Positions 25,908 through 33,841 of a stretch of DNA of 52,360 nucleotides are shown here, piece by piece. A program made the translations under genes and the position numbers. The stretch comes from an uncultured Anaerolineae bacterium. GTDB taxonomy: Bacteria > Chloroflexota > Anaerolineae > Aggregatilineales > UBA3940. The stretch's first letter is position 1. Every line of letters starts with the position of its first letter. Location of the stretch: positions 1 to 52,360 of the forward strand of contig CAZDLX010000003.1 of the NCBI GenBank assembly GCA_964506005.1, given 5' to 3'. The notes beneath the pieces were generated by a model that saw only the letters and a program-made list of their open reading frames with translations, was not told where the DNA came from and searched no databases.

Positions 25908-27503
25908 TTATCTGGCCAGGGGTCCGGCTTCGCGCACGGCAGCGCTGAGCACATCGGCGTACTGCCTGGCATTCTCCGCAAAGAGGTTGGCCAGCTCCTG
26001 CGCCTTTGTGTCGTAGGCTTCCTTATCCTCCCACATCGCACGCGGGTTGAGCACGTCGTCCGGCACGCCGGGTACCTGCAGCGGCACGTGGAGGCCGAAG
26101 ATAGGATCTTCACGCGTTTCGACTTCCGCCAGCGCGCCTTCGAGGACCGCCCGGATCATCGCCCGCGTGTAGCGCAGCTCGATGCGGTTCCCCACGCCGT
26201 AGGGCCCGCCGACCCAGCCCGTGTTGACCAGCCACACACTTGCCCCATGCTCGGCGATCTTCTCGCCGAGCAGGTCTGCATACCTGCGCGGGTGCAGCGG
26301 CAGGAAAGGCGCACCGAAGCCGGCGCTGAATGTTGCCTTCGGCTCTGAGACGCCGCGCTCGGTGCCGGCCACCTTCGCCGTGTAGCCGCTCATGAAGTGG
26401 TACATGGCCTGATCACGCGTGAGGCGGCTGATGGGCGGCAGCACGCCGAACGCATCCGCGGTCAGGAAGAGTATGTTGTTGGGGTGGCCTGCCACGCCTG
26501 TGCGTGTGGCGTTCGGAATGTGGCTTATCGGGTACGATGCGCGGGTGTTCTCCGTCAGCGTGTCGTCGTCCAGATCGATCCGGCGGCTGTTCATGTGCAT
26601 TCCGACGTTCTCCAGGATGGTCCCGAAGCGCCGGGTCGTCTGGAAGATCTCCGGCTCGCCGGTGGGTGAGAGCCGGATGACCTTCGCATAGCAGCCGCCC
26701 TCGAAGTTGAAGATGCCGTCGTCGCTCCAGCCATGCTCGTCGTCGCCGATGAGCGTCCGCGTCGAGTCAGAGGACAGCGTCGTCTTGCCCGTGCCGGACA
26801 GCCCGAAGAACAGGGCGACGTCACCCTTGTCACCCTCGTTCGCCGAGCAGTGCATCGGCAGCACGCCTCGCTTCGGCAGATAGTAGTTCATGACACTGAA
26901 GATCGACTTCTTGATCTCGCCTGCATAGGCGGTGCCACCGATGATCACCACCTTCTCGGCGAAGTTGATAAGCACGAACGCCGGGGAGTTCGTGCCGTCC
27001 CGATCCGGGTTCGCGTGGAAGCTTGGCGCCTGGATGACCGTGAAATCGGGCTCAAAGCCGACCAGTTCCTCGTCGGGCACGCGGATGAACATGTTGCGGG
27101 CGAACAGGTTGTGCCAGGCCGTTTCGGTGATAATCCGCACCGAGAGCCGGTGCGCCGGGTCGGCGCCGGCGTAGGCGTTCTGCACGAAGGCGTTCTTGCC
27201 CTGGAAATACGCGAGCAGGTTGCGGTACAGGTCGTCGAACTGCTCGATGCTGAAAGGCCGGTTGATGTCCCCCCACCAGATGTCGTCACGCGTGGTTGGC
27301 TCGTGGACGATGAAGCGGTCCTGCGGCGACCGCCCGGTATGGTCACCCGTGCCGACGACCAGCGGCCCGAGATGTGCCACGTAGCCCTCCTGCCGCCGGA
27401 TTGCCTGCTCGTAAAGCTGCGGCGTGTGAAGCTGCCAGTAAATTGTGTTCAGGTTCCGGAACCCTAGAGCTTCCATTTCAGGGTGCGTTTGCAGGATTTC
27501 CAT
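25908..27503 (-). CDS. pckA: phosphoenolpyruvate carboxykinase (ATP)
   Basis: Motifs [13 protein letters not shown] (P-loop), LIGDDEHGW and ...[16 protein letters not shown]. The start was chosen at MEILQTHPE (ATG 27503), preceded by GGAGGAAAG. The track start is at 27527. Confidence 0.95.
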
Positions 27504-27710
27504 CTTTCCTCCGTACTGGCACGACAAAATGCGGGGTAACGGACCACCGCGCCGGGTCGCTCTTGATTCTAGCGCGCGACGCGGGCTCTATACAGTGAAA
27601 TACGCAGCCGTGTGATGGGGCGTCACGACGACTGCGCATTTCATGGGGTGAGGATAGGGATGAGAACTCTTCTTGGAGAGTCAACTGTATCCTAGCACAT
27701 TCTTCGATAT

Positions 27711-27745
27711 AGTTTCGTGAAGTTTCATGAAAAGTTTGTGAATTC
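27711..27745. promoter_or_regulatory. array of alternating TTC/GAA half-sites with 10-bp periodicity
   Basis: AGTTTCGTGA AGTTTCATGA AAAGTTTGTGAATTC reads as TTC-gt-GAA-gt-TTC-at-GAA-aagt-TTg-t-GAA-TTC. It lies in the only AT-rich stretch of the pckA / CHAT-island divergent intergenic region, about 65-100 nt upstream of the predicted + strand -10 box. Confidence 0.35.
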
Positions 27746-27784
27746 AGCCTGCCGGGGGGCGCGTTCCGCCCGTTGTCGATCCAC

Positions 27785-27814
27785 TTCACCCGGCGGAAGG
27801 GCCTGTGCTACACT
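27785..27814 (+). promoter_or_regulatory. candidate promoter of the CHAT-island operon
   Basis: TTCACC, an 18-nt spacer, then TGcTACACT (extended -10), about 36 nt upstream of ATG 27850. RBS is GGAAGGGTAGG. Confidence 0.35.
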
Positions 27815-27849
27815 ACATACAGCGGCCAACTGGTTGGAAGGGTAGGCAG

Positions 27850-29130
27850 ATGGAGCGTGACACACGGCGCGACCCGGGCGGTTACTTCATCATCGCGCAG
27901 TGGTACGACACCGTCCGGAGTGCGCTGCTCATGCTGGAGGAGCAGGGCGGCCAGGGGTGGTGGTATCTGATCGTGCGCGTGTGGCGCGAGGAAGCACTGG
28001 TCTGCCGGTTCATCGATCTGGTCCGCCGGCTTGAGATCGAGGGCCCGCTCCTGCTCGACGAAAAGCTGGACTCGCTCGGCCCGCCGCTTGAGCCGGCGAT
28101 CTACCTGGACGCCAAAATCGGCGACGACACGGCAGTCCGGCTCGCCAGGGAGAGCGAAGGCGGGCGTGCGGTGGTGGTGAACTTGCACCCGCCGAACACA
28201 ACACAGGCGGGCACGCTGCCGGGCATCGACGTGGTACGCATCGTCGATACGCGACGTTCGCGCGGGCTCGCCTCAACCGAGATTCCCGAAGCCGTCTTCG
28301 ATCTGGCGCGGGGGCTTCCAACCGGCACGGAGCCGCCCGAACAGCGCCCGCTCACGCCCGGCAGCATCCCTCCGATGGGTGCGCCGCAACCTGGGCCAGT
28401 TGCACCCTCAGCGCCGGTACCCGGTCCATCCCGCACTACGGATGTGCCCCGCATGGAGCCGCGCGAAGAGGAGCTTGAGGAAACCGCGCACCCCGACGCG
28501 GGCGAGATCGTCTACGGTGATGAGGTTCACGGGGACAAAGTCACGGCGGGCAACATCACGAACAGCATGGGCGTCGCCATCGGGCCGGGCGCGCAGACGC
28601 ACGTCTACCTCAACTCGCCCGAGCCGGAGACGCGCGAGCAGCCCCGCCGCTTCGAGGCGGCCTTCCCGAAGGAGTGCCACCTCGGCGCAGAGCAGAAGCT
28701 GTGGGTCGCCGTTATGCTGCCCGACGCGGAGTCGCCGTTTGGCGAGCGCGCGGACGACCACGACATCGCCTCGACGGATGAGGTCGGCGTGCCGATGCCG
28801 GTCGATGGGCGGACAGGCCAGCTCAAAGCCGTCGACGTGGAGGTGACGGTCACGGCGACGGGCTTCCGGGTAGAGGGAGCCAGCACGAAGAAGCTGACCG
28901 TGTGGCCCGACGGCAGACTCGCCAAGCGCTGGTTCCAGCTCGAGCCGGACGCGCCCGGCGAGCAGGAGATCCACCTCGAAGTGTGCATCGACGGGCGCCT
29001 GCTGCAGGAGATCGACCTTATCACCACCGTCTACGAGCCGCGGAAGAAGGCGCGCAGCCTGCTGAACCTGTCGCTGACGATCGCGTCGTTCGGGCTGACG
29101 TTCACATTTGCAGCCGGAGCGGGCACGTGA
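27850..29130 (+). CDS. hypothetical multidomain protein, partner of the downstream CHAT protease
   Basis: 426 aa from ATG 27850. The parts are an unknown ~165-aa N-domain, a Pro-rich linker, the repeat motif EIVYGDEVHGDKVTAGNITNSMGVAIGPGAQTHV (28504-28605), a beta-rich C-domain (FEAAFPKECHLGAEQKLWVAV...EIHLEVCIDGRLLQEIDLITTVYE) and the hydrophobic tail SLLNLSLTIASFGLTFTFAAGAGT. No family recognised. Confidence 0.7.
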   Translation: MERDTRRDPGGYFIIAQWYDTVRSALLMLEEQGGQGWWYLIVRVWREEALVCRFIDLVRRLEIEGPLLLDEKLDSLGPPLEPAIYLDAKIGDDTAVRLARESEGGRAVVVNLHPPNTTQAGTLPGIDVVRIVDTRRSRGLASTEIPEAVFDLARGLPTGTEPPEQRPLTPGSIPPMGAPQPGPVAPSAPVPGPSRTTDVPRMEPREEELEETAHPDAGEIVYGDEVHGDKVTAGNITNSMGVAIGPGAQTHVYLNSPEPETREQPRRFEAAFPKECHLGAEQKLWVAVMLPDAESPFGERADDHDIASTDEVGVPMPVDGRTGQLKAVDVEVTVTATGFRVEGASTKKLTVWPDGRLAKRWFQLEPDAPGEQEIHLEVCIDGRLLQEIDLITTVYEPRKKARSLLNLSLTIASFGLTFTFAAGAGT

Positions 29131-29172
29131 GCCCGGTCTTATCCGCTGATTGCCAAGCAAAGGGGGAGCGAC

Positions 29173-30819
29173 GTGATCGATTACCTGGATTTTGAAGTGC
29201 TCATCAGCGAGACGGCTGACGGCTACCGGGCGCGCGTCCTCGACTCGCCGGGCGGGCAGGTCAGCACAACCTTTGCTGTACCATTCACAAAGGCTGAGAT
29301 CACGGCGTTCTACCAGCGGCTTGACAGGCCGCGCTACGATGACGGCAACCTCGCGGCGGCGCGGGACTACGGCGGCAGGCTGTTCGACGCCGTCTTTACC
29401 GGCGAGATGCTCGGTACGCTGCGAGCCAGCCTGCTGCGCGCAACAACGGAGAACAAGGGTCTGCGCTTCCGGCTGCGCTTTGACGACGAAGCAGCGCCCG
29501 TCGCGCAGCTTCCCTGGGAAGCATTGTACTACGCGCCTCTGGACCGCTTCTTTGCGCTCTCGGCCTACACACCGCTGACACGTTTCCTGGAGATGCCGGA
29601 GCAGGTCGAGCCGCTGCCGCTGGAGCCGCCTCTCCGGATGCTGGTCATGGTCTCCAGCCCCGGCGACCTGGACCAGCTGGACGTCGACATGGAGTGGTCG
29701 GTCATCAACGACGCGCTGGACCATCTGGAGGACGCAGGCTACGTCAGCGTCGAGCGCATGGACACGGCGACGCTCTCCGCGCTGCAGGAGAAGCTCAGCG
29801 AGGGGACGTACCACATCTTCCACTACATCGGGCATGGCGGCTTCGACGAGAACACCCAGACAGGCGAGGTGATCTTCGAGACGGAGGACGAGCATGCCCG
29901 CCCGGTCTCGGGCAGCGAGCTCGGCACTATGCTGCACGACCACCGCAGCCTGCGCCTTGTCATGCTCAACGCCTGTGTCTCGGGTAAGGGATCGCACGTG
30001 AGCCAGTTCCGCGGGGTGGCGCAGCGGCTGGTGCAGCAGGGCCTGCCGGCAGTCGTCGCGATGCAGTCGAGCGTATCAGATCTGGCGGCAATTGCGCTGT
30101 CCAGCCGGCTGTACGCGGCGCTGGCCTCCGGCTTTCCGGTTGACGCGGCGCTGGCGGAGGGCCGCAAGGCGGTCTTCGCGCTCGGCGACAACATCGAGTG
30201 GGCGAACCCGGTGCTGTACCTGCGCGCCCCCGATGCCCGCGTGTTCGACGTGGCGCTCGACGAAGCCGGGCTTGCCCAGCCGGACGAGCGTGTCGTCGGC
30301 GTGCCGCTCAGCGCCGAGGAGAGCGTCGCCAGCCCGACGACCCGGGAACCGGTGGAACAGGCCCAGCCCGACGACCCGCGCCGCCCCCGGGTGGACAGCG
30401 TGTACGGCGACCTCGTCGAGGGCGACAAGATCATCCACGGAGACGAGGTCGGCGGGGACAAGATCACCGTTGGCAACATCACGGGGAGCAGCGGCATCGC
30501 CATCGGGCGGGGCGCACGCGCCAGCGTATCGGGTTCCGGCGGAGACTCGCCCTTCCAGCTGGTGCGCGAGAAGCTGCCTGAGCTGGGCATCGACGAGAGC
30601 GCGCAGGAGGAAGCCGAGTTCGCCGTCCGCCAGATCGAGAAGCAGGACGCCTCCGCCGAACCGGACATCGACCGGATCGACCGCTGGCTCGGCGTGCTGG
30701 AGGAAGTCGCGCCCGCGGCGCTGGAACTGCTTGTCGACGCCGTGGCCAACCCCGGCGCGGCCGTCAGCGCCGGAATGAGGCTGGCGATCAAGACGTGGCG
30801 GCGGGCGCGCAAGCCGTAG
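29173..30819 (+). CDS. CHAT-domain (caspase-like) protease with C-terminal repeat motif and helical tail
   Basis: 548 aa, GTG start after AAAGGGGGAG. A His/Cys dyad sits in the expected context: YHIFHYIGHGGF (His codon 29833-29835) and LRLVMLNACVSG (Cys codon 29974-29976). Further along are ...LPAVVAMQ...AALAEGRKA, the motif DSVYGDLVEGDKIIHGDEVGGDKITVGNITGSSGIAIGRGARASV (30391-30528), and a ~95-aa helical tail. Confidence 0.85.
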   Translation: MIDYLDFEVLISETADGYRARVLDSPGGQVSTTFAVPFTKAEITAFYQRLDRPRYDDGNLAAARDYGGRLFDAVFTGEMLGTLRASLLRATTENKGLRFRLRFDDEAAPVAQLPWEALYYAPLDRFFALSAYTPLTRFLEMPEQVEPLPLEPPLRMLVMVSSPGDLDQLDVDMEWSVINDALDHLEDAGYVSVERMDTATLSALQEKLSEGTYHIFHYIGHGGFDENTQTGEVIFETEDEHARPVSGSELGTMLHDHRSLRLVMLNACVSGKGSHVSQFRGVAQRLVQQGLPAVVAMQSSVSDLAAIALSSRLYAALASGFPVDAALAEGRKAVFALGDNIEWANPVLYLRAPDARVFDVALDEAGLAQPDERVVGVPLSAEESVASPTTREPVEQAQPDDPRRPRVDSVYGDLVEGDKIIHGDEVGGDKITVGNITGSSGIAIGRGARASVSGSGGDSPFQLVREKLPELGIDESAQEEAEFAVRQIEKQDASAEPDIDRIDRWLGVLEEVAPAALELLVDAVANPGAAVSAGMRLAIKTWRRARKP

Positions 30820-30828
30820 CTGCGTCTC

Positions 30829-30858
30829 TTGTATGTGGAAAAAAGCGCATGTTATAAT
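30829..30858 (+). promoter_or_regulatory. sigma-70-type promoter of yebC
   Basis: TTGTAT (30829-30834), an 18-nt spacer, then TATAAT (30853-30858), about 85 nt upstream of ATG 30944. Confidence 0.5.
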
Positions 30859-30943
30859 GCAACGTCCGTAAAACGAAAAGGCAGTCGTGGGGTGCGGTAC
30901 TCACGCCGCGCACAGGGCATGGCACCATAGAAGGGTTGGGAAT

Positions 30944-31696
30944 ATGAGCGGTCACAGCAAATGGTCTACCATTAAGCGCAAGAAGGCGGCCAACGACGCG
31001 AAGCGCGGCAAGGTCTTTACGCGGCTCTCGCGCGAGATTACTATTGCGGCACGCGCTGGAGGCGACCCCGAATCAAATGCGGCGTTGGGCCTGGCTATCG
31101 ACAAGGCCAAGGCCGAGAACATGCCGAAGGACAACATCGACCGGGCGATCAAGCGCGGCACCGGCGAGCTGAAAGACGCCGAGGACATTGCGGAAATCCT
31201 TTACGAGGCATACGGGCCGCAGGGTGTGGCGCTGATTATTGAGGTTGCGACGGACAACCGCAACCGCACGCTGGCGGACATCAAGCACCGCCTGAACAAA
31301 GTAGGCGGCAGCATGGCGGAGCCCGGCTCGGTCGCCTGGCAGTTCGAGCAGAAGGGCTACATCGCCGTGGCTGCGGACGGGCAGGACTACGACGAGATCT
31401 TCATGCTGGCTGCCGAGGCAGGCGCAGAGGATGTCTCCGAGGACGATGGCCTGTTTGAGATATTCACCCCGCGAGACGCGCTGCACACCGTGTTCTCGGC
31501 GCTCAAGGAGGCGGGGATACAGGTTGAAGAGGCGCGCCTCGACTGGGTGCCGAAGACCGAGATCGAGCTGGAAGCCGGCCCGGCGATGAAGGTGATGAAC
31601 CTCATCGAGGAGCTGGAGGACGGCGACGACACGCAGATGGTGTACTCAAATCTGCGCGTGACAGACGAGTTGATGGCAGCCTTTGAAGAAGGCTAG
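30944..31696 (+). CDS. yebC: YebC/PmpR family DNA-binding transcriptional regulator
   Basis: MSGHSKWSTIKRKKAANDAKRGKVFTRLSREI... is the family's hallmark N-terminus. ATG 30944 is in frame with the track ORF 30887..31696. Confidence 0.9.
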   Translation: MSGHSKWSTIKRKKAANDAKRGKVFTRLSREITIAARAGGDPESNAALGLAIDKAKAENMPKDNIDRAIKRGTGELKDAEDIAEILYEAYGPQGVALIIEVATDNRNRTLADIKHRLNKVGGSMAEPGSVAWQFEQKGYIAVAADGQDYDEIFMLAAEAGAEDVSEDDGLFEIFTPRDALHTVFSALKEAGIQVEEARLDWVPKTEIELEAGPAMKVMNLIEELEDGDDTQMVYSNLRVTDELMAAFEEG

Positions 31697-31726
31697 CCGC
31701 GGCGCAGGTGATAGCCTATAGTCATG

Positions 31727-31762
31727 AGGGCGGACGGAAGCACAACCCGTTCGCCCTTTCGT
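31727..31762 (+). terminator. possible terminator after yebC
   Basis: AGGGCGGACGG-9 nt-CCGTTCGCCCT forms an 11-bp stem with one G.U pair, followed by TTCGTT. The U-tract is poor. Confidence 0.3.
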
Positions 31763-31790
31763 TAAGCAGACCGGGAAGTCAGGAGTAAAC

Positions 31791-32291
31791 GTGATCGCTC
31801 TCGGAATCGATCCGGGTATCGGCATTACGGGCTACGGTGTGGTCCGCGAGCTGCCGTCGGGAGAGATTGAGCTCGTCGCCTACGGCGTTATCGAGACGCC
31901 GCCGAACTCGCCGCTGCCCCAGCGCCTGCAGCAGATCTACAAGGGCGTGCGTGAGGTCATCGCGCTGCATAGGCCGGAGACCTCGGCGGTCGAGAAGCTG
32001 CTGTTCGGCAAGAACGTCACGACGGCGATGGCCGTGGGCCAGGCGCGCGGCGTGACGGTCCTGGCGCTGGCGGACTGCGGCCTGCAGATCTCCGAGTATA
32101 CGCCCGCGTCGATCAAGCAGGCGGTCGCGGGCTACGGCAATGCCTCGAAGGGCCAGGTGCAGGACATGGTCCGCATGCTGCTGGAGCTGGACGACATCCC
32201 GCGCCCCGACGACGCAGCGGATGCGCTGGCGGTGGCGATCACGCACCTGCACAGCACCCGCTACCAGCAGCTCTACGACGAGCAGAACTAG
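31791..32291 (+). CDS. ruvC: crossover junction endodeoxyribonuclease RuvC
   Basis: 166 aa, GTG start after AGGAG. Motif (V)IALGIDPGIGITGYGVV. Acidic catalytic residues are in context (...AVEKLLF..., ...PDDAADALAVAITH). Confidence 0.9.
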   Translation: MIALGIDPGIGITGYGVVRELPSGEIELVAYGVIETPPNSPLPQRLQQIYKGVREVIALHRPETSAVEKLLFGKNVTTAMAVGQARGVTVLALADCGLQISEYTPASIKQAVAGYGNASKGQVQDMVRMLLELDDIPRPDDAADALAVAITHLHSTRYQQLYDEQN

Positions 32292-32306
32292 CCAGCGCTG
32301 GCCCGG

Positions 32307-32336
32307 TTGCACTTCCGCGGGGCAGGGGGCTACAAT
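32307..32336 (+). promoter_or_regulatory. candidate promoter of the DUF1385-GNAT pair
   Basis: TTGCAC, an 18-nt spacer, then TACAAT, about 40 nt upstream of ATG 32376. Confidence 0.4.
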
Positions 32337-32375
32337 TCCGGGGAGCACGCCAGCAGCCCGTAGTTTGGAGATCGC

Positions 32376-33299
32376 ATGGCAAAACAGAAGTTCAATTATG
32401 GTGGGCAGGCCGTCATCGAGGGCGTGATGATGCGCGGCAGCCGGCAAGTGGCGGTCGCGGTCCGCAACCCCGAGGGCGAGATCGTCGTCCACGAGCAGGA
32501 TATCAACTCGTCGCTCTACAACGGCTTCTGGAGCAAGGTGCCGTTCGTGCGGGGGCTGGGGCTGCTGTGGGACTCGCTTGGATTAGGGATGCGCGCGCTG
32601 ACGTTCTCGGCGGACGTCGCCGTCGGCGACGAGGCTGAGTTCAGCGGGCCAATGGCCTGGGGCACCATCGCGCTGTCGCTCGCGATCTCGGTTGCGCTGT
32701 TTTTCCTCACACCGGCGGCTGCGGCGGACGGGCTGCACCGGCTCACCGGGTTGGACTCGCCCTTTGTGGGCAACCTCGTCGAGGGCGTCATCCGGCTGCT
32801 GCTGGTGATCGGCTACATCTGGGCGATCGGCCGCATGGAGGACATCAAGCGGCTGTTCGCCTACCATGGCGCAGAACACAAGACGATCAACGCCTACGAG
32901 GACAATGCCCCGCTGACCCCCGAGTCTGTGGCCCGCTACCCGCTGGAGCATCCCCGCTGCGGGACGGGCTTCCTGCTGGTCGTCGTGGTGATCTCCGTGC
33001 TGATTTTCTCGATGCTGGGCCGGCCCCACATCCTGCTGCGGCTGGCATCACGCATCGTGCTCATCCCGATCGTCGCCGGGATAGCCTACGAGTACATCCG
33101 CCTGCTAGCACGCAACCTCGACAAGCCGCTGGCGCGGATTCTGGTTGCACCGCAGCTCTGGCTGCAGAAGCTCACCACCCGCGAGCCATCGCTCGACATG
33201 CTGGAGGTGAGCATCACCGCGCTCCAGAACGTGCTCGCAACCGAGCACCTTCCCGTACCGGCGCAGGAGCCGGAAACCGCCGCGGTGAAGCTGTCATGA
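32376..33299 (+). CDS. DUF1385 (YqhQ-like) membrane protein
   Basis: 307 aa with MAKQKFNYGGQAVIEGVMMRG... and AYHGAEHKTINAYE motifs plus several TM segments. Confidence 0.8.
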   Translation: MAKQKFNYGGQAVIEGVMMRGSRQVAVAVRNPEGEIVVHEQDINSSLYNGFWSKVPFVRGLGLLWDSLGLGMRALTFSADVAVGDEAEFSGPMAWGTIALSLAISVALFFLTPAAAADGLHRLTGLDSPFVGNLVEGVIRLLLVIGYIWAIGRMEDIKRLFAYHGAEHKTINAYEDNAPLTPESVARYPLEHPRCGTGFLLVVVVISVLIFSMLGRPHILLRLASRIVLIPIVAGIAYEYIRLLARNLDKPLARILVAPQLWLQKLTTREPSLDMLEVSITALQNVLATEHLPVPAQEPETAAVKLS

Positions 33300-33841
33300 G
33301 CCTGTTTGAAGGTAAGCTCGTTCGCCTGACGCAGATCTCCCGCGAGAACCTGCCGGTCTATAAGCGCTGGTTCCGCGACTACGAGACCCAGCGACTTCTG
33401 GGCCAGCTGCCCGTGCCCGTTACCGACGAGTTTGAGGAAGACTGGTACGACGCCATGTCCCGGCGCACGGGCCGCGGCGAGGTCTACTCGTTCAGCATCC
33501 GCACGCTTGCCGATGACGAGTTGATCGGCAACTGCTCGCTGTTCGACGTGAATCACAAGAACCGCCGCGCGGAGCTGGGTATCGTGATCGGCGAGAAGGA
33601 GTACTGGGGGCGCGGCTACGGCACCGACGCGATGTCGGTGCTGCTGCGCTTCGGCTTCGACGAGCTCAACCTGCACCGCGTCGAGCTGCAGGTGTACGAC
33701 TTCAACCCGCGCGGCATCCGCGCCTACGAGAAGCTCGGCTTCGTCCACGAGGGCCGCCGCCGCGAGGTTGTCTGGCGGGAAGGCGCCTACCACGACATGC
33801 TGCTGATGTCGATCCTCGAAGACGAGTGGCGCAAGCGGTAA
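33296..33841 (+). CDS. GNAT family N-acetyltransferase (RimJ/RimL-like)
   Basis: 181 aa: ...IGNCSLFDVNHKNRRAELGIVIGEKEYWGRGYGTDAMSVLLRFGFDELNLHRVELQVYDFNPRGIRAYEKLGF. The start forms an ATGA overlap with the upstream stop. Confidence 0.8.
   Translation: MSLFEGKLVRLTQISRENLPVYKRWFRDYETQRLLGQLPVPVTDEFEEDWYDAMSRRTGRGEVYSFSIRTLADDELIGNCSLFDVNHKNRRAELGIVIGEKEYWGRGYGTDAMSVLLRFGFDELNLHRVELQVYDFNPRGIRAYEKLGFVHEGRRREVVWREGAYHDMLLMSILEDEWRKR

What the first reader, a model, noticed from the sequence alone, without database searches (positions are those of the whole stretch)
28504..30528. The same ~30-aa Gly/Asp/Lys/Asn/Ile-rich repeat motif is present in both adjacent proteins (20/30 identical)
Seen in sequence:
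- Protein 1 (nt 28504-28605) has ...GDEVHGDKVTAGNITNSMGVAIGPGAQTHV.
- The CHAT protein (nt 30391-30528) has ...GDLVEGDKIIHGDEVGGDKITVGNITGSSGIAIGRGARASV.
- The aligned 30-residue core has 20 identities, and the CHAT copy carries one extra GD-x-[IV] unit.
- Some DNA stretches are identical (GGCAACATCACG, GCCATCGGGC).
- In both proteins the motif sits after a Pro-rich or acidic linker, between globular parts.
- The 5-6-residue periodicity (GDxhx / GxxhxG) suggests a short beta-solenoid or beta-arch.

Established knowledge: in fungal and bacterial NLR-type systems, short motifs shared between adjacent genes (amyloid signalling motifs) transmit activation by templated folding.

Inference: this shared motif may mediate hetero-association or prion-like signalling between protease and partner. 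The placement differs from the classical C-terminus-to-N-terminus arrangement.
Basis: partly seen in the sequence, partly recalled or inferred. Interest (0 to 1): 0.7.

Follow-up and report, generated by a model that had tools for sequence, protein, structure and literature searches.

The report
Shared adaptor motif linking protease and partner
Two neighbouring genes, a caspase-like CHAT protease and an uncharacterised partner, share a real, conserved ~35-residue Gly/Asp/Lys/Val-rich motif that elsewhere repeatedly marks adjacent gene pairs of caspase-type proteases and NLR-like ATPases, so it most likely docks the two proteins together; whether it does so by prion-like templating is untested.

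Summary
The two adjacent + strand genes share a 34-residue segment, 21/34 identical, BLASTP E=5e-10, and it occurs nowhere else in the window. It is not a generic low-complexity linker. A profile of the motif finds 586 protein clusters among 1.84 billion. These are dominated by caspase/CHAT proteases, EAD7/EAD1 adaptors, STAND (NACHT, nSTAND) NTPases and the Pfam domain TCAD2. In 62 metagenome loci fetched through one motif copy, 18 carry a second motif-bearing gene. It is usually the collinear neighbour, typically [caspase–motif–TCAD2] next to [N-terminal motif–STAND NTPase]. The window holds a variant: [CHAT–motif–divergent TCAD2] next to a partner with no NTPase (CBS-pair-like domain, Pro-rich linker, motif, β-sandwich, hydrophobic tail). 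This pair is syntenically conserved in Anaerolineae-type Chloroflexota. AlphaFold2 leaves the motif unstructured in both proteins (pLDDT <50 in the partner, 21–43 in CHAT). No Pfam or NCBIfam model matched the motif region in the proteins scanned, and it does not match sampled BASS1–10 amyloid-signalling motifs. My best reading is a homotypic docking motif that recruits the protease to its partner. That is inferred from genomic context. Amyloid or prion-like templating is possible but untested. It is a new variant of a known kind.

The parts
27850..29130 (+). Protein 1 gene (426 aa from ATG 27850; the mechanical ORF starts at GTG 27805), the partner of the CHAT protease
   Evidence: ORF list. 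The closest homolog, P0001, is 426 aa. There are 9 homologs, all from uncultured Chloroflexota and metagenomes.
27880..28314 (+). N-terminal α/β domain of protein 1 (aa 11-155), CBS-pair-like, a candidate ligand-sensing module
   Evidence: AF2 pLDDT is about 80-90 with topology β-α-β-β-α twice. The best PDB sequence hit is a 'CBS domain-containing protein', but only at E=0.19. No Pfam hit. The assignment is tentative.
28318..28503 (+). Pro-rich and acidic disordered linker of protein 1 (aa 157-218)
   Evidence: AF2 pLDDT is about 27-37. Length and sequence vary among orthologs.
28504..28605 (+). Motif copy 1 (aa 219-252): EIVYGDEVHGDKVTAGNITNSMGVAIGPGAQTHV. It has one GDxVxGDK unit followed by the ITxGNIxxSxGVAIGxGA core.
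   Evidence: BLASTP E=5e-10 against copy 2. Motif-profile hit E=5.3e-19. AF2 pLDDT <50.
28618..29049 (+). β-sandwich domain of protein 1 (aa 257-400), weakly DUF7363-like; the most conserved part of the family
   Evidence: AF2 pLDDT >90. Pfam DUF7363 E=0.0011, below the cut-off. Foldseek gives generic Ig, CARDB and macroglobulin-like sandwiches. Conservation is shown.
29050..29127 (+). Conserved C-terminal hydrophobic tail ARSLLNLSLTIASFGLTFTFAAGAGT, with alternating hydrophobic and Ser/Thr residues; possibly a tail anchor or β-hairpin
   Evidence: Conserved as LNLSLxIAxFxLSLSFAAGA in all orthologs. AF2 confidence is low. Function is inferred only.
29173..30819 (+). CHAT protease gene (548 aa, GTG start), 42 bp downstream of protein 1 on the same strand
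   Evidence: ORF list. Pfam CHAT E=1.7e-26, 93.8 bits against a cut-off of 24.
29173..30252 (+). CHAT (caspase-fold) domain, aa 1-360. Catalytic His221 is at 29833-29835 and Cys268 at 29974-29976.
   Evidence: AF2 pLDDT about 90. Foldseek: SAVED-CHAT filament 8tl0 at E=1e-10, then separase and Craspase TPR-CHAT. The GHG and NAC motifs are present.
30391..30528 (+). Motif copy 2 (aa 407-452): VDSVYGDLVEGDKIIHGDEVGGDKITVGNITGSSGIAIGRGARASV. It has two GDxVxGDK units followed by the core.
   Evidence: Motif-profile hit E=4.7e-19. AF2 pLDDT 21-43. Conserved in all full-length orthologs P0010-P0020 but absent from 109 CHAT paralogs that have other C-terminal domains.
30550..30810 (+). C-terminal helical bundle (aa 460-546), a divergent TCAD2 (PF19971) domain
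   Evidence: AF2 shows five helices, pLDDT about 62-90 by 10-residue block. Four of 12 orthologs hit Pfam TCAD2, best E=2.6e-5, although the window protein itself does not. The tail follows the same pattern as motif+TCAD2 tails of about 100 other proteins.

Best explanation
The shared segment is one member of a conserved, modular β-strand-prone adaptor motif. Its consensus is (GDxVxGDK)n-ITVG[DN]I[ST]GSxG[VI]AIGxGAxAxV. It is disordered in the free monomer.

I propose that it mediates motif-to-motif (homotypic) association between the products of adjacent genes. In the wider family, one partner is a caspase-fold protease (Peptidase_C14 or CHAT) followed by the motif and a helical TCAD2 domain. 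The other partner carries a shorter copy, most often at the extreme N-terminus of a STAND/NLR-like NTPase.

In this window the STAND partner is replaced by protein 1, which has a CBS-pair-like domain, a Pro-rich linker, the motif, a β-sandwich and a hydrophobic tail. The proposed sequence of events is as follows:
- A change in protein 1 (ligand binding to the N-domain, or clustering at a membrane) exposes or concentrates its motif.
- That motif co-folds with the motif of the CHAT protein.
- This recruits and concentrates the protease, which either becomes active by proximity or oligomerisation, or gains access to protein 1 as a substrate.

What is shown: the motif is real, conserved, specific to this class of proteins, and enriched in adjacent gene pairs. 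What is inferred: that the two copies bind each other, that binding activates or targets the protease, and the nature of the co-fold (stoichiometric β-augmentation or β-roll, versus open-ended amyloid-like templating).
For: 1. Significant similarity confined to the motif: E=5e-10.
2. The motif is a conserved sequence, not composition. A 36-position profile finds 586 cluster representatives at E<=1e-3 and 34 at E<=1e-10 among 1.84 billion.
3. Of 91 carriers of at least 200 aa, 26 have TCAD2, 13 Peptidase_C14, 10 EAD7, 8 CHAT and 5 EAD1, and several have AAA_16, NACHT, nSTAND or TIR_2. These are the building blocks of NLR-like conflict systems (Kaur et al. 2020, PMC7159879).
4. Eighteen of 62 metagenome loci retrieved through one motif copy carry a second motif-bearing ORF, mostly the collinear neighbour. 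Thirty-six of the 44 single-copy loci have <1 kb of sequence on at least one side. L009 adds a weaker pair.
5. Architectures of the pairs:
- caspase-motif-TCAD2 next to N-terminal motif-NACHT/nSTAND1 (L013, L016, L065; also L017, where the two genes lie about 5.7 kb apart);
- caspase-motif-TCAD2 next to N-terminal motif-vWA (L014);
- CHAT-motif-TCAD2 next to X-motif-TCAD2 (L010);
- caspase-motif next to EAD7-motif (L019);
- motif-nSTAND1 next to EAD7-motif (L056).
6. Cognate motif copies are slightly more alike than non-cognate ones: 0.363 against 0.327, permutation p=0.0085.
7. The motif is kept where protease chemistry is lost. Orthologs P0013 and P0015 lack the catalytic His and Cys, and L037 pairs a protein-1 ortholog with a motif-TCAD2 protein that has no CHAT domain. 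This argues for a binding role rather than a cleavage-site role.
8. AF2 leaves the motif unstructured in both monomers and does not pack it on TCAD2, as expected for a segment that folds only on association.
9. The nearest solved CHAT relative, SAVED-CHAT, was solved as an activated filament.
10. The protein-1/CHAT pair and its flanks (PEPCK upstream; YebC-RuvC-DUF1385-GNAT downstream) are conserved across MAGs at 34-57% identity.
Against: - No interaction, structure or fibril data exist. Everything beyond co-occurrence is inference.
- In the orthologous protein-1/CHAT pairs the shared segment is significant only in the window lineage (E=5e-10) and L001 (1.5e-6). It is weak in L007 (0.026) and not detectable in L004. 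Protein-1 orthologs carry different subsets of the repeat modules.
- L003 has protein 1 without an adjacent CHAT gene.
- The cognate-similarity signal is small and could reflect shared ancestry or local recombination.
- The GDK units are rich in charged residues, whereas the published BASS amyloid-signalling motifs are reported as depleted in Lys.
- The alignments behind the AF2 models are shallow (10 and 12 sequences), so low pLDDT is weak evidence.
Confidence: 0.55

Rival explanations
1. This is true amyloid or prion-like signalling. The motif is a new family of bacterial amyloid signalling sequence. A nucleated cross-β or β-solenoid fold on the sensor-side copy templates open-ended polymerisation of the protease-side copy, as in HET-s/NWD2 or BASS pairs. 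This is a more specific version of the best explanation.
For: - The genomic grammar is that of amyloid signalling motifs: a short copy at the N-terminus of STAND NTPases and a longer, multi-unit copy on the effector-side protein of the adjacent gene (Dyrka et al. 2020).
- The composition is rich in G, V, I, N, S and D, with 5-residue periodicity.
- Both monomers are predicted unstructured at the motif.
- There is a weak resemblance to BASS6 (SGERSVAVGG) and to the NSVAIG β-roll rung of trimeric autotransporter heads.
- Dyrka et al. report CHAT as a BASS-associated effector domain.
Against: - There is no significant match to sampled BASS1-10 sequences: best 9.4 bits, hhalign probability 1-3%.
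- On the effector side the motif is not C-terminal; it is followed by a folded TCAD2 or β-sandwich domain.
- The GDK units are Lys- and Asp-rich, whereas BASS motifs are reported as Lys-depleted.
- The window pair has no NLR.
- No amyloid predictor or experiment was available.
Confidence: 0.25
2. The motif is a protease recognition or processing site. The GDK, RDK and IGR units would be cut by the Lys/Arg-specific caspase-fold protease. Cutting would release the protease from TCAD2 and process the partner at the same sequence. On this view the motif is shared because both proteins are substrates.
For: - The motif lies in an exposed, disordered linker in both proteins.
- It contains repeated basic residues after small residues.
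- It always accompanies caspase or CHAT genes.
- Kaur et al. propose proteolytic release of effectors in related systems.
Against: - The motif is fully conserved in CHAT orthologs that have lost the catalytic His and Cys (P0013, P0015).
- It is also conserved in a partner with no protease domain at all (L037).
- Some pairs contain no protease: Zn-ribbon-motif-TCAD2 with motif-TPR in L039, and nSTAND1 with EAD7 in L056.
- About 35 conserved residues is far longer than a typical cleavage site.
Confidence: 0.1
3. There is no functional link. The segment is a recombinationally mobile spacer or stalk module common in these multidomain proteins, and protein 1 picked up a piece of it by chance or by local recombination with its neighbour.
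For: - Protein-1 orthologs carry different, labile subsets of the repeat modules, and some share nothing significant with their CHAT neighbour.
- The region is predicted disordered.
- The motif occurs in many architectures.
Against: - Sequence conservation is far stronger than in spacers.
- Paralogous CHAT proteins with other C-terminal domains lack it entirely: 109 of 120 listed.
- Second copies in neighbouring genes are strongly enriched, and in otherwise unrelated proteins.
- DNA identity of 72.5%, with diverged third positions, argues against recent copying.
Confidence: 0.1

Closest known systems
Bacterial amyloid signalling sequences (BASS1-10) in Bell/NLR gene pairs, and fungal HET-s/NWD2-type motifs (Dyrka et al. 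2020, bioRxiv 10.1101/2020.01.06.895854)
   Same: - A short G/N/V/I-rich, β-prone motif is shared by two collinear adjacent genes.
- In the wider family, one copy sits at the N-terminus of a STAND NTPase and a longer, multi-unit copy sits on the effector-side protein.
- The carriers identified to taxon here are Chloroflexota MAGs; BASS pairs are reported mainly from multicellular or filamentous bacteria.
- CHAT is reported there as a possible effector.
   Different: - The sequence does not match sampled BASS1-10.
- The effector-side copy is internal and is followed by TCAD2.
- Lys/Asp-rich GDK units are present.
- The window pair has no NLR and no Bell domain.
- Amyloid formation is untested.
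Effector-associated domains (EAD1-11) and death-like adaptors of NTP-dependent conflict systems (Kaur, Burroughs, Iyer, Aravind 2020, PMC7159879)
   Same: The logic is the same: one copy on a core or sensor component and a second copy on the protein of the adjacent gene, proposed to couple the two by homotypic interaction. The partner repertoire is also the same (caspase, CHAT, TIR, STAND, vWA). The motif co-occurs with EAD7, EAD1 and TCAD2.
   Different: EADs are treated as discrete domains, some α-helical and death-like, and each has a Pfam model. This element is a ~35-50-residue repeat motif predicted unstructured. No Pfam or NCBIfam hit covered it in the proteins scanned. It was not found in the text of that paper.
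SAVED-CHAT (CBASS/type III CRISPR-associated) and Craspase TPR-CHAT proteases
   Same: They share the CHAT caspase fold (Foldseek E=1e-10 to 1e-7). The protease is controlled by a partner or sensor module, and SAVED-CHAT was solved as an activated filament.
   Different: There is no SAVED, TPR or CRISPR component here. The coupling element is a short shared motif plus TCAD2, not a nucleotide-binding domain.
EACC1-caspase two-gene membrane-associated system (Kaur et al. 2020, system 4)
   Same: Both have a 5' gene encoding a small protein with a hydrophobic segment and a 3' gene encoding a caspase-fold protease with a variable C-terminus. Caspases that carry the motif score sub-threshold against NCBIfam 'caspase, EACC1-associated type'.
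   Different: Protein 1 has no EACC1 hit. The window protease is CHAT, with only E=0.032 to that model.
NSVAIG-S repeats of YadA-like trimeric autotransporter heads (left-handed parallel β-roll); the resemblance was recalled from memory and then checked
   Same: The core xSxGVAIGxGAxA resembles the NSVAIGxxA rung. The second-best PDB sequence hit is the adhesin head 3la9, GTNSVAIGPNAVANVD.
   Different: The match is not significant (E=7.3). There is a single rung rather than an array, the proteins are cytoplasmic, and there is no Pfam Hep_Hag hit.

Membership tests
BASS / NLR-associated amyloid signalling motifs | A short (~25 aa) motif shared by two adjacent, collinear genes | tested here: met
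   Window: 34 aa shared, E=5e-10, genes 42 bp apart on the same strand. Wider family: 18 of 62 loci have two motif genes.
BASS / NLR-associated amyloid signalling motifs | One partner is an NLR-like STAND NTPase carrying the motif at its N-terminus | tested here: not met
   Protein 1 has no NTPase domain. The feature is met in other loci of the motif family: L013, L016, L017, L056, L065.
BASS / NLR-associated amyloid signalling motifs | The effector-side motif is at the C-terminal end of the effector protein | tested here: not met
   In the CHAT protein the motif is followed by a ~90-aa helical TCAD2-like domain. In protein 1 it is followed by a β-sandwich.
BASS / NLR-associated amyloid signalling motifs | Sequence match to one of the BASS1-10 profiles | tested here: not met
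   The motif HMM was run against 100 published BASS sequences: best 9.4 bits (BASS6). hhalign probabilities were 0.1-3% for BASS1, 2, 3, 4 and 6. Only a sample of the published sets was used.
BASS / NLR-associated amyloid signalling motifs | Forms amyloid fibrils or propagates as a prion | not testable with these tools
   No experiment, multimer prediction or β-arch predictor was available.
Effector-associated domains (EADs) | Duplicate presence: one copy on a core component and one on the product of the adjacent gene | tested here: met
   and the window pair itself.
Effector-associated domains (EADs) | A discrete domain matching one of the Pfam EAD models | tested here: not met
   Neither window protein has an EAD hit. 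The motif is predicted unstructured. EAD7 and EAD1 occur beside the motif in other proteins, not in place of it.
CHAT (clan CD caspase-fold peptidases) | Pfam CHAT above the gathering score, and the caspase fold | tested here: met
   93.8 bits against a cut-off of 24. Foldseek matches SAVED-CHAT, separase and Craspase.
CHAT (clan CD caspase-fold peptidases) | Catalytic His-Cys dyad | tested here: met
   His221 (IGHGG) and Cys268 (LNACV) are present in the window protein. Both are lost in orthologs P0013 and P0015.
TCAD2 (PF19971) | Pfam TCAD2 match in the C-terminal region | tested here: inconclusive
   The window protein has no hit even at E<=10. Four of 12 orthologs hit, best 2.6e-5. The tail is a helical bundle and shares the pattern seen in TCAD2-positive tails.
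Pentapeptide-repeat β-helix proteins | Pfam Pentapeptide match, or the A(D/N)LXX consensus | tested here: not met
   No Pfam hit. The periodicity is 5 residues, but Asp would occupy the inward-facing i-2 position (read directly from the sequence).
Bacterial gasdermin-protease pairs | The partner has a gasdermin fold | tested here: not met
   The folded C-terminal part of protein 1 is an Ig/CARDB-like sandwich. There is no gasdermin among the Foldseek hits.

The most novel reading that the evidence does not exclude
The GDK-VAIG motif would be a previously undescribed family of prion-like (templating) signalling sequence. It would couple caspase-fold proteases to their sensors in filamentous bacteria. 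In this Anaerolineae lineage it would have been wired to a non-NLR, CBS-pair-type metabolite sensor, in a chromosomally fixed, syntenic two-gene module that controls regulated proteolysis (cell death or differentiation) rather than mobile phage defence.
Probability: 0.2. Interest if true: 0.8.

Novelty: new variant of a known kind. Interest (0 to 1): 0.6.

Why it matters
How bacterial caspase-like proteases are switched on by their sensors is largely unknown. Short motifs shared between adjacent genes are the hallmark of amyloid-based signalling in fungi and of the BASS systems in bacteria.

This motif defines a compact, easily synthesised element of about 35 residues. It links caspase and CHAT proteases to STAND NTPases in many uncultured bacteria, and the Pfam, NCBIfam and BASS-sample comparisons run here did not recognise it.

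It therefore offers a direct experimental handle (peptide assembly, motif swaps, two-hybrid) on whether prokaryotic caspase activation uses templated folding. The window's variant has a non-NTPase partner, an internal motif and a conserved housekeeping neighbourhood. That suggests the same coupling device has been reused outside classical NLR immunity.

Tried and rejected
1. Generic linker of the CHAT family. Rejected: 109 of 120 close CHAT relatives with other C-terminal domains lack the motif.

2. Word-indexed homolog search with the motif profile. It returned only 20 short fragments and missed the known carriers, so it was uninformative about architecture. The exhaustive profile search replaced it.

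3. Membership in BASS1-10. Tested with published sequences and not supported.

4. Pentapeptide, bactofilin or Hep_Hag repeats. No Pfam hits. The PDB sequence search gave nothing significant.

5. The motif as a structured part of TCAD2 or an autonomous β-solenoid. AF2 gives pLDDT 21-43 in CHAT and <50 in protein 1, so there is no support, though the alignments are shallow.

6. Recent gene conversion between the two copies. Rejected: 72.5% nt identity, third positions 22/34.

7. Protein 1 as a gasdermin-like or EACC1 protein. No support.

8. Literature. Exact motif strings, 'TCAD2' and 'ternary complex associated domain' were not found in the held library or in the two Kaur et al. papers. Absence from this library does not prove the motif is undescribed.

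9. Phage origin. No viral contig encodes the motif.

10. PADLOC. Only SAVED_CHAT-type similarity of the protease domain; no system assignment.

11. The first attempt to scan metagenome contigs with the broad alignment failed because it had no conserved 7-10 column stretch. A tighter alignment worked.

Full report
**The observation**

The region holds two collinear + strand genes. Protein 1 runs from 27850 to 29130 (426 aa from the ATG; the mechanical ORF begins at GTG 27805). A CHAT-domain protein runs from 29173 to 30819 (548 aa).

BLASTP of the two proteins gives a single significant segment: 21/34 identical, no gaps, E=5e-10. The CHAT copy has one extra GDxVxGDK unit. Pattern scans of all six frames of the 52-kb window find the motif nowhere else.

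At the DNA level the copies are 72.5% identical, with diverged third positions (22/34). The similarity is therefore maintained at the protein level and is not a recent conversion tract.

**The two proteins**

The CHAT protein:
- It scores 93.8 bits on Pfam CHAT and keeps the catalytic His221 and Cys268.
- Its AlphaFold2 model has a confident CHAT domain (residues 1-360), an unstructured stretch at 364-457 that contains the motif (pLDDT 21-43), and a helical bundle at 460-546.
- Foldseek places the protease next to the SAVED-CHAT filament, separase and Craspase.
- The helical tail is a divergent TCAD2 (PF19971). Four of 12 orthologs hit that model, although the window protein itself does not.

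Protein 1:
- It has only nine detectable homologs, all from uncultured Chloroflexota or metagenomes.
- Its model shows an α/β domain at residues 11-155 with a doubled β-α-β-β-α topology. This is CBS-pair-like, but the best PDB sequence hit is only E=0.19.
- Residues 157-256 are unstructured and comprise the Pro-rich linker plus the motif.
- Residues 257-400 form a very confident β-sandwich, weakly DUF7363-like.
- The C-terminus is a conserved hydrophobic tail.

**Conservation of the pair**

Protein 1 and the CHAT-motif-TCAD2 protein are adjacent in Anaerolineae-type MAGs and metagenome contigs L001, L002, L004, L005, L006, L007 and L036. The flanks are the same in several of these loci: PEPCK upstream and YebC-RuvC-DUF1385-GNAT downstream. 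This is a chromosomally stable two-gene module, not an obviously mobile island.

All full-length CHAT orthologs keep the motif. The 109 listed CHAT relatives with other C-terminal domains (WD40, TPR, FGE-sulfatase and others) do not.

The motif region is modular, with three kinds of unit:
- (a) VxVGGNVxGxxNVAGGDI
- (b) GDxVxGDKxIxGDEVxGDK
- (c) ITVGDISGSxGVAIGxGAxxxV

CHAT orthologs carry several of these. Protein-1 orthologs carry varying subsets. Pairwise, the shared segment is significant in the window (E=5e-10) and in L001 (1.5e-6). It is weak in L007 (0.026) and absent in L004.

**What the motif is**

A 36-position profile was searched against 1.84 billion cluster representatives. It finds 586 proteins at E<=1e-3 and 34 at E<=1e-10.

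The consensus is GGDFVGRDKxVHGDEVHGDKVGGDKITVGDISGSTGVAIGRGAQATVTQG. It is usually followed within about 10 residues by a TCAD2 helical domain.

Of 91 carriers of at least 200 aa, 26 have TCAD2, 13 Peptidase_C14, 10 EAD7, 8 CHAT and 5 EAD1. Several have AAA_16, NACHT, nSTAND or TIR_2. In the NTPases the motif sits at the extreme N-terminus.

No Pfam or NCBIfam hit fell on the motif in any protein scanned. No solved structure contains it. The only faint echo is the NSVAIG rung of a trimeric autotransporter head, at E=7.3. No viral contig encodes it.

**Does it mark gene pairs?**

A metagenome scan seeded with one motif copy returned 62 loci. Eighteen of them have a second motif-bearing ORF, mostly the collinear neighbour. 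Thirty-six of the 44 single-copy loci have under 1 kb of sequence on at least one side. L009 adds a weaker pair.

The pairs have these architectures:

| Loci | First protein | Second protein |
|---|---|---|
| L013, L016, L065 (adjacent); L017 (about 5.7 kb apart) | caspase-motif-TCAD2 | N-terminal motif-NACHT/nSTAND1 |
| L014 | caspase-motif-TCAD2 | N-terminal motif-vWA |
| L010 | CHAT-motif-TCAD2 | X-motif-TCAD2 |
| L019 | caspase-motif | EAD7-motif |
| L056 | motif-nSTAND1-Peptidase_C39 | EAD7-motif |
| L039 | Zn-ribbon-motif-TCAD2 | motif-TPR |

Cognate copies are slightly more similar than non-cognate ones (0.363 against 0.327, permutation p=0.0085). That is a modest signal and may partly reflect shared ancestry.

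This is the genomic grammar of NLR-associated amyloid signalling motifs (Dyrka et al. 2020). It is also the grammar of the homotypic effector-associated adaptors of Kaur et al. 2020.

**Mechanism**

The best-supported reading is a homotypic docking motif. It is disordered alone and co-folds with the copy on the neighbour's product, coupling a caspase-fold protease to its sensor or partner. In the window, the usual STAND partner is replaced by the CBS-like/β-sandwich protein 1.

A cleavage-site reading is disfavoured for three reasons:
- The motif is intact in CHAT orthologs that have lost the catalytic dyad (P0013, P0015).
- It is intact in a partner with no protease domain at all (L037).
- It occurs in pairs that contain no protease.

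A spacer reading is disfavoured by the conservation and the neighbour enrichment.

It remains open whether the co-fold is a finite complex or an open-ended amyloid-like polymer. The motif does not match sampled BASS1-10 sequences. It is Lys/Asp-rich in its GDK units. AF2 on shallow alignments gives no fold.

**Comparison and novelty**

The element works like a BASS/HET-s-type motif or an EAD adaptor, but it fails membership tests for both. It has no BASS profile match, it is internal rather than terminal on the effector side, and it is not a predicted globular domain. The window pair also lacks an NLR.

I found no description of it in the searchable literature. That library is incomplete, so this is not proof that it is undescribed.

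I rate it a new variant of a known kind. It is of moderate to high interest because it gives a small, testable handle on how bacterial caspase-like proteases are coupled to their sensors.

Noticed in passing
P0013 and P0015 (CHAT orthologs, 52-54% identical; P0015 is named 'Aggregatilineales bacterium'): These orthologs have lost both catalytic residues (IGSG instead of IGHG; CTSV instead of NACV). They keep the motif and the TCAD2 tail almost unchanged, so the non-catalytic part appears to be the selected function in those lineages.
   Followed up: partly
L037:2-1021 (metagenome contig JAANMT010017857.1): A protein-1 ortholog is followed not by a CHAT protease but by a small protein that is only motif plus a TCAD2-like tail (it corresponds to P0165). 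The pairing with protein 1 therefore survives loss of the protease domain.
   Followed up: partly
window 29050-29127: Protein 1 ends in a conserved tail, LLNLSLTIASFGLTFTFAAGAGT. It alternates hydrophobic and Ser/Thr residues and is conserved in all orthologs. It could be a tail anchor, a membrane-inserting β-hairpin or another aggregation-prone strand. AF2 confidence is low.
   Followed up: no
window 27880-28314: The N-terminal domain of protein 1 has a doubled β-α-β-β-α topology, and its best (non-significant, E=0.19) PDB sequence hit is a CBS-domain protein. It is possibly a Bateman-type nucleotide sensor with an unusual invariant WW motif (GQxWWYL).
   Followed up: partly
window 25908-33841 compared with L001, L002, L004, L005, L007: The two-gene module sits in a conserved housekeeping neighbourhood across MAGs only 34-57% identical in protein 1. 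ATP-dependent PEP carboxykinase is upstream on the - strand, and YebC/TACO1, RuvC, DUF1385 and GNAT acetyltransferase are downstream. This is unusual for conflict-system genes.
   Followed up: partly
L003:5413-6591 (Anaerolineae MAG CAZRXG010000006.1): A protein-1 ortholog has only an 'a'-type repeat segment (VDIGGSVESGGEVIIAGDDVNIY) and no adjacent CHAT gene. The next gene looks like an α/β-hydrolase-type protein from its sequence; no family search was run on it.
   Followed up: no
Supplement of PMC8086366 (BASS6 set) and PDB 3la9: The VAIG core of the motif recalls both BASS6 (for example SGERAVAIGGNASG) and the NSVAIG rung of YadA-like adhesin heads. Neither similarity is statistically significant, but together they hint at a common β-roll or β-arch rung geometry.
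   Followed up: partly
P0150 (2876 aa, top hit of the representative search): A very long protein matches the motif profile in 20 separate stretches (for example GSIEQSNGVAVGDGTASAS). It is probably a repetitive β-helical adhesin-like protein rather than a member of the caspase/STAND group. This shows that the VAIG core alone recurs in β-helix repeats.
   Followed up: no
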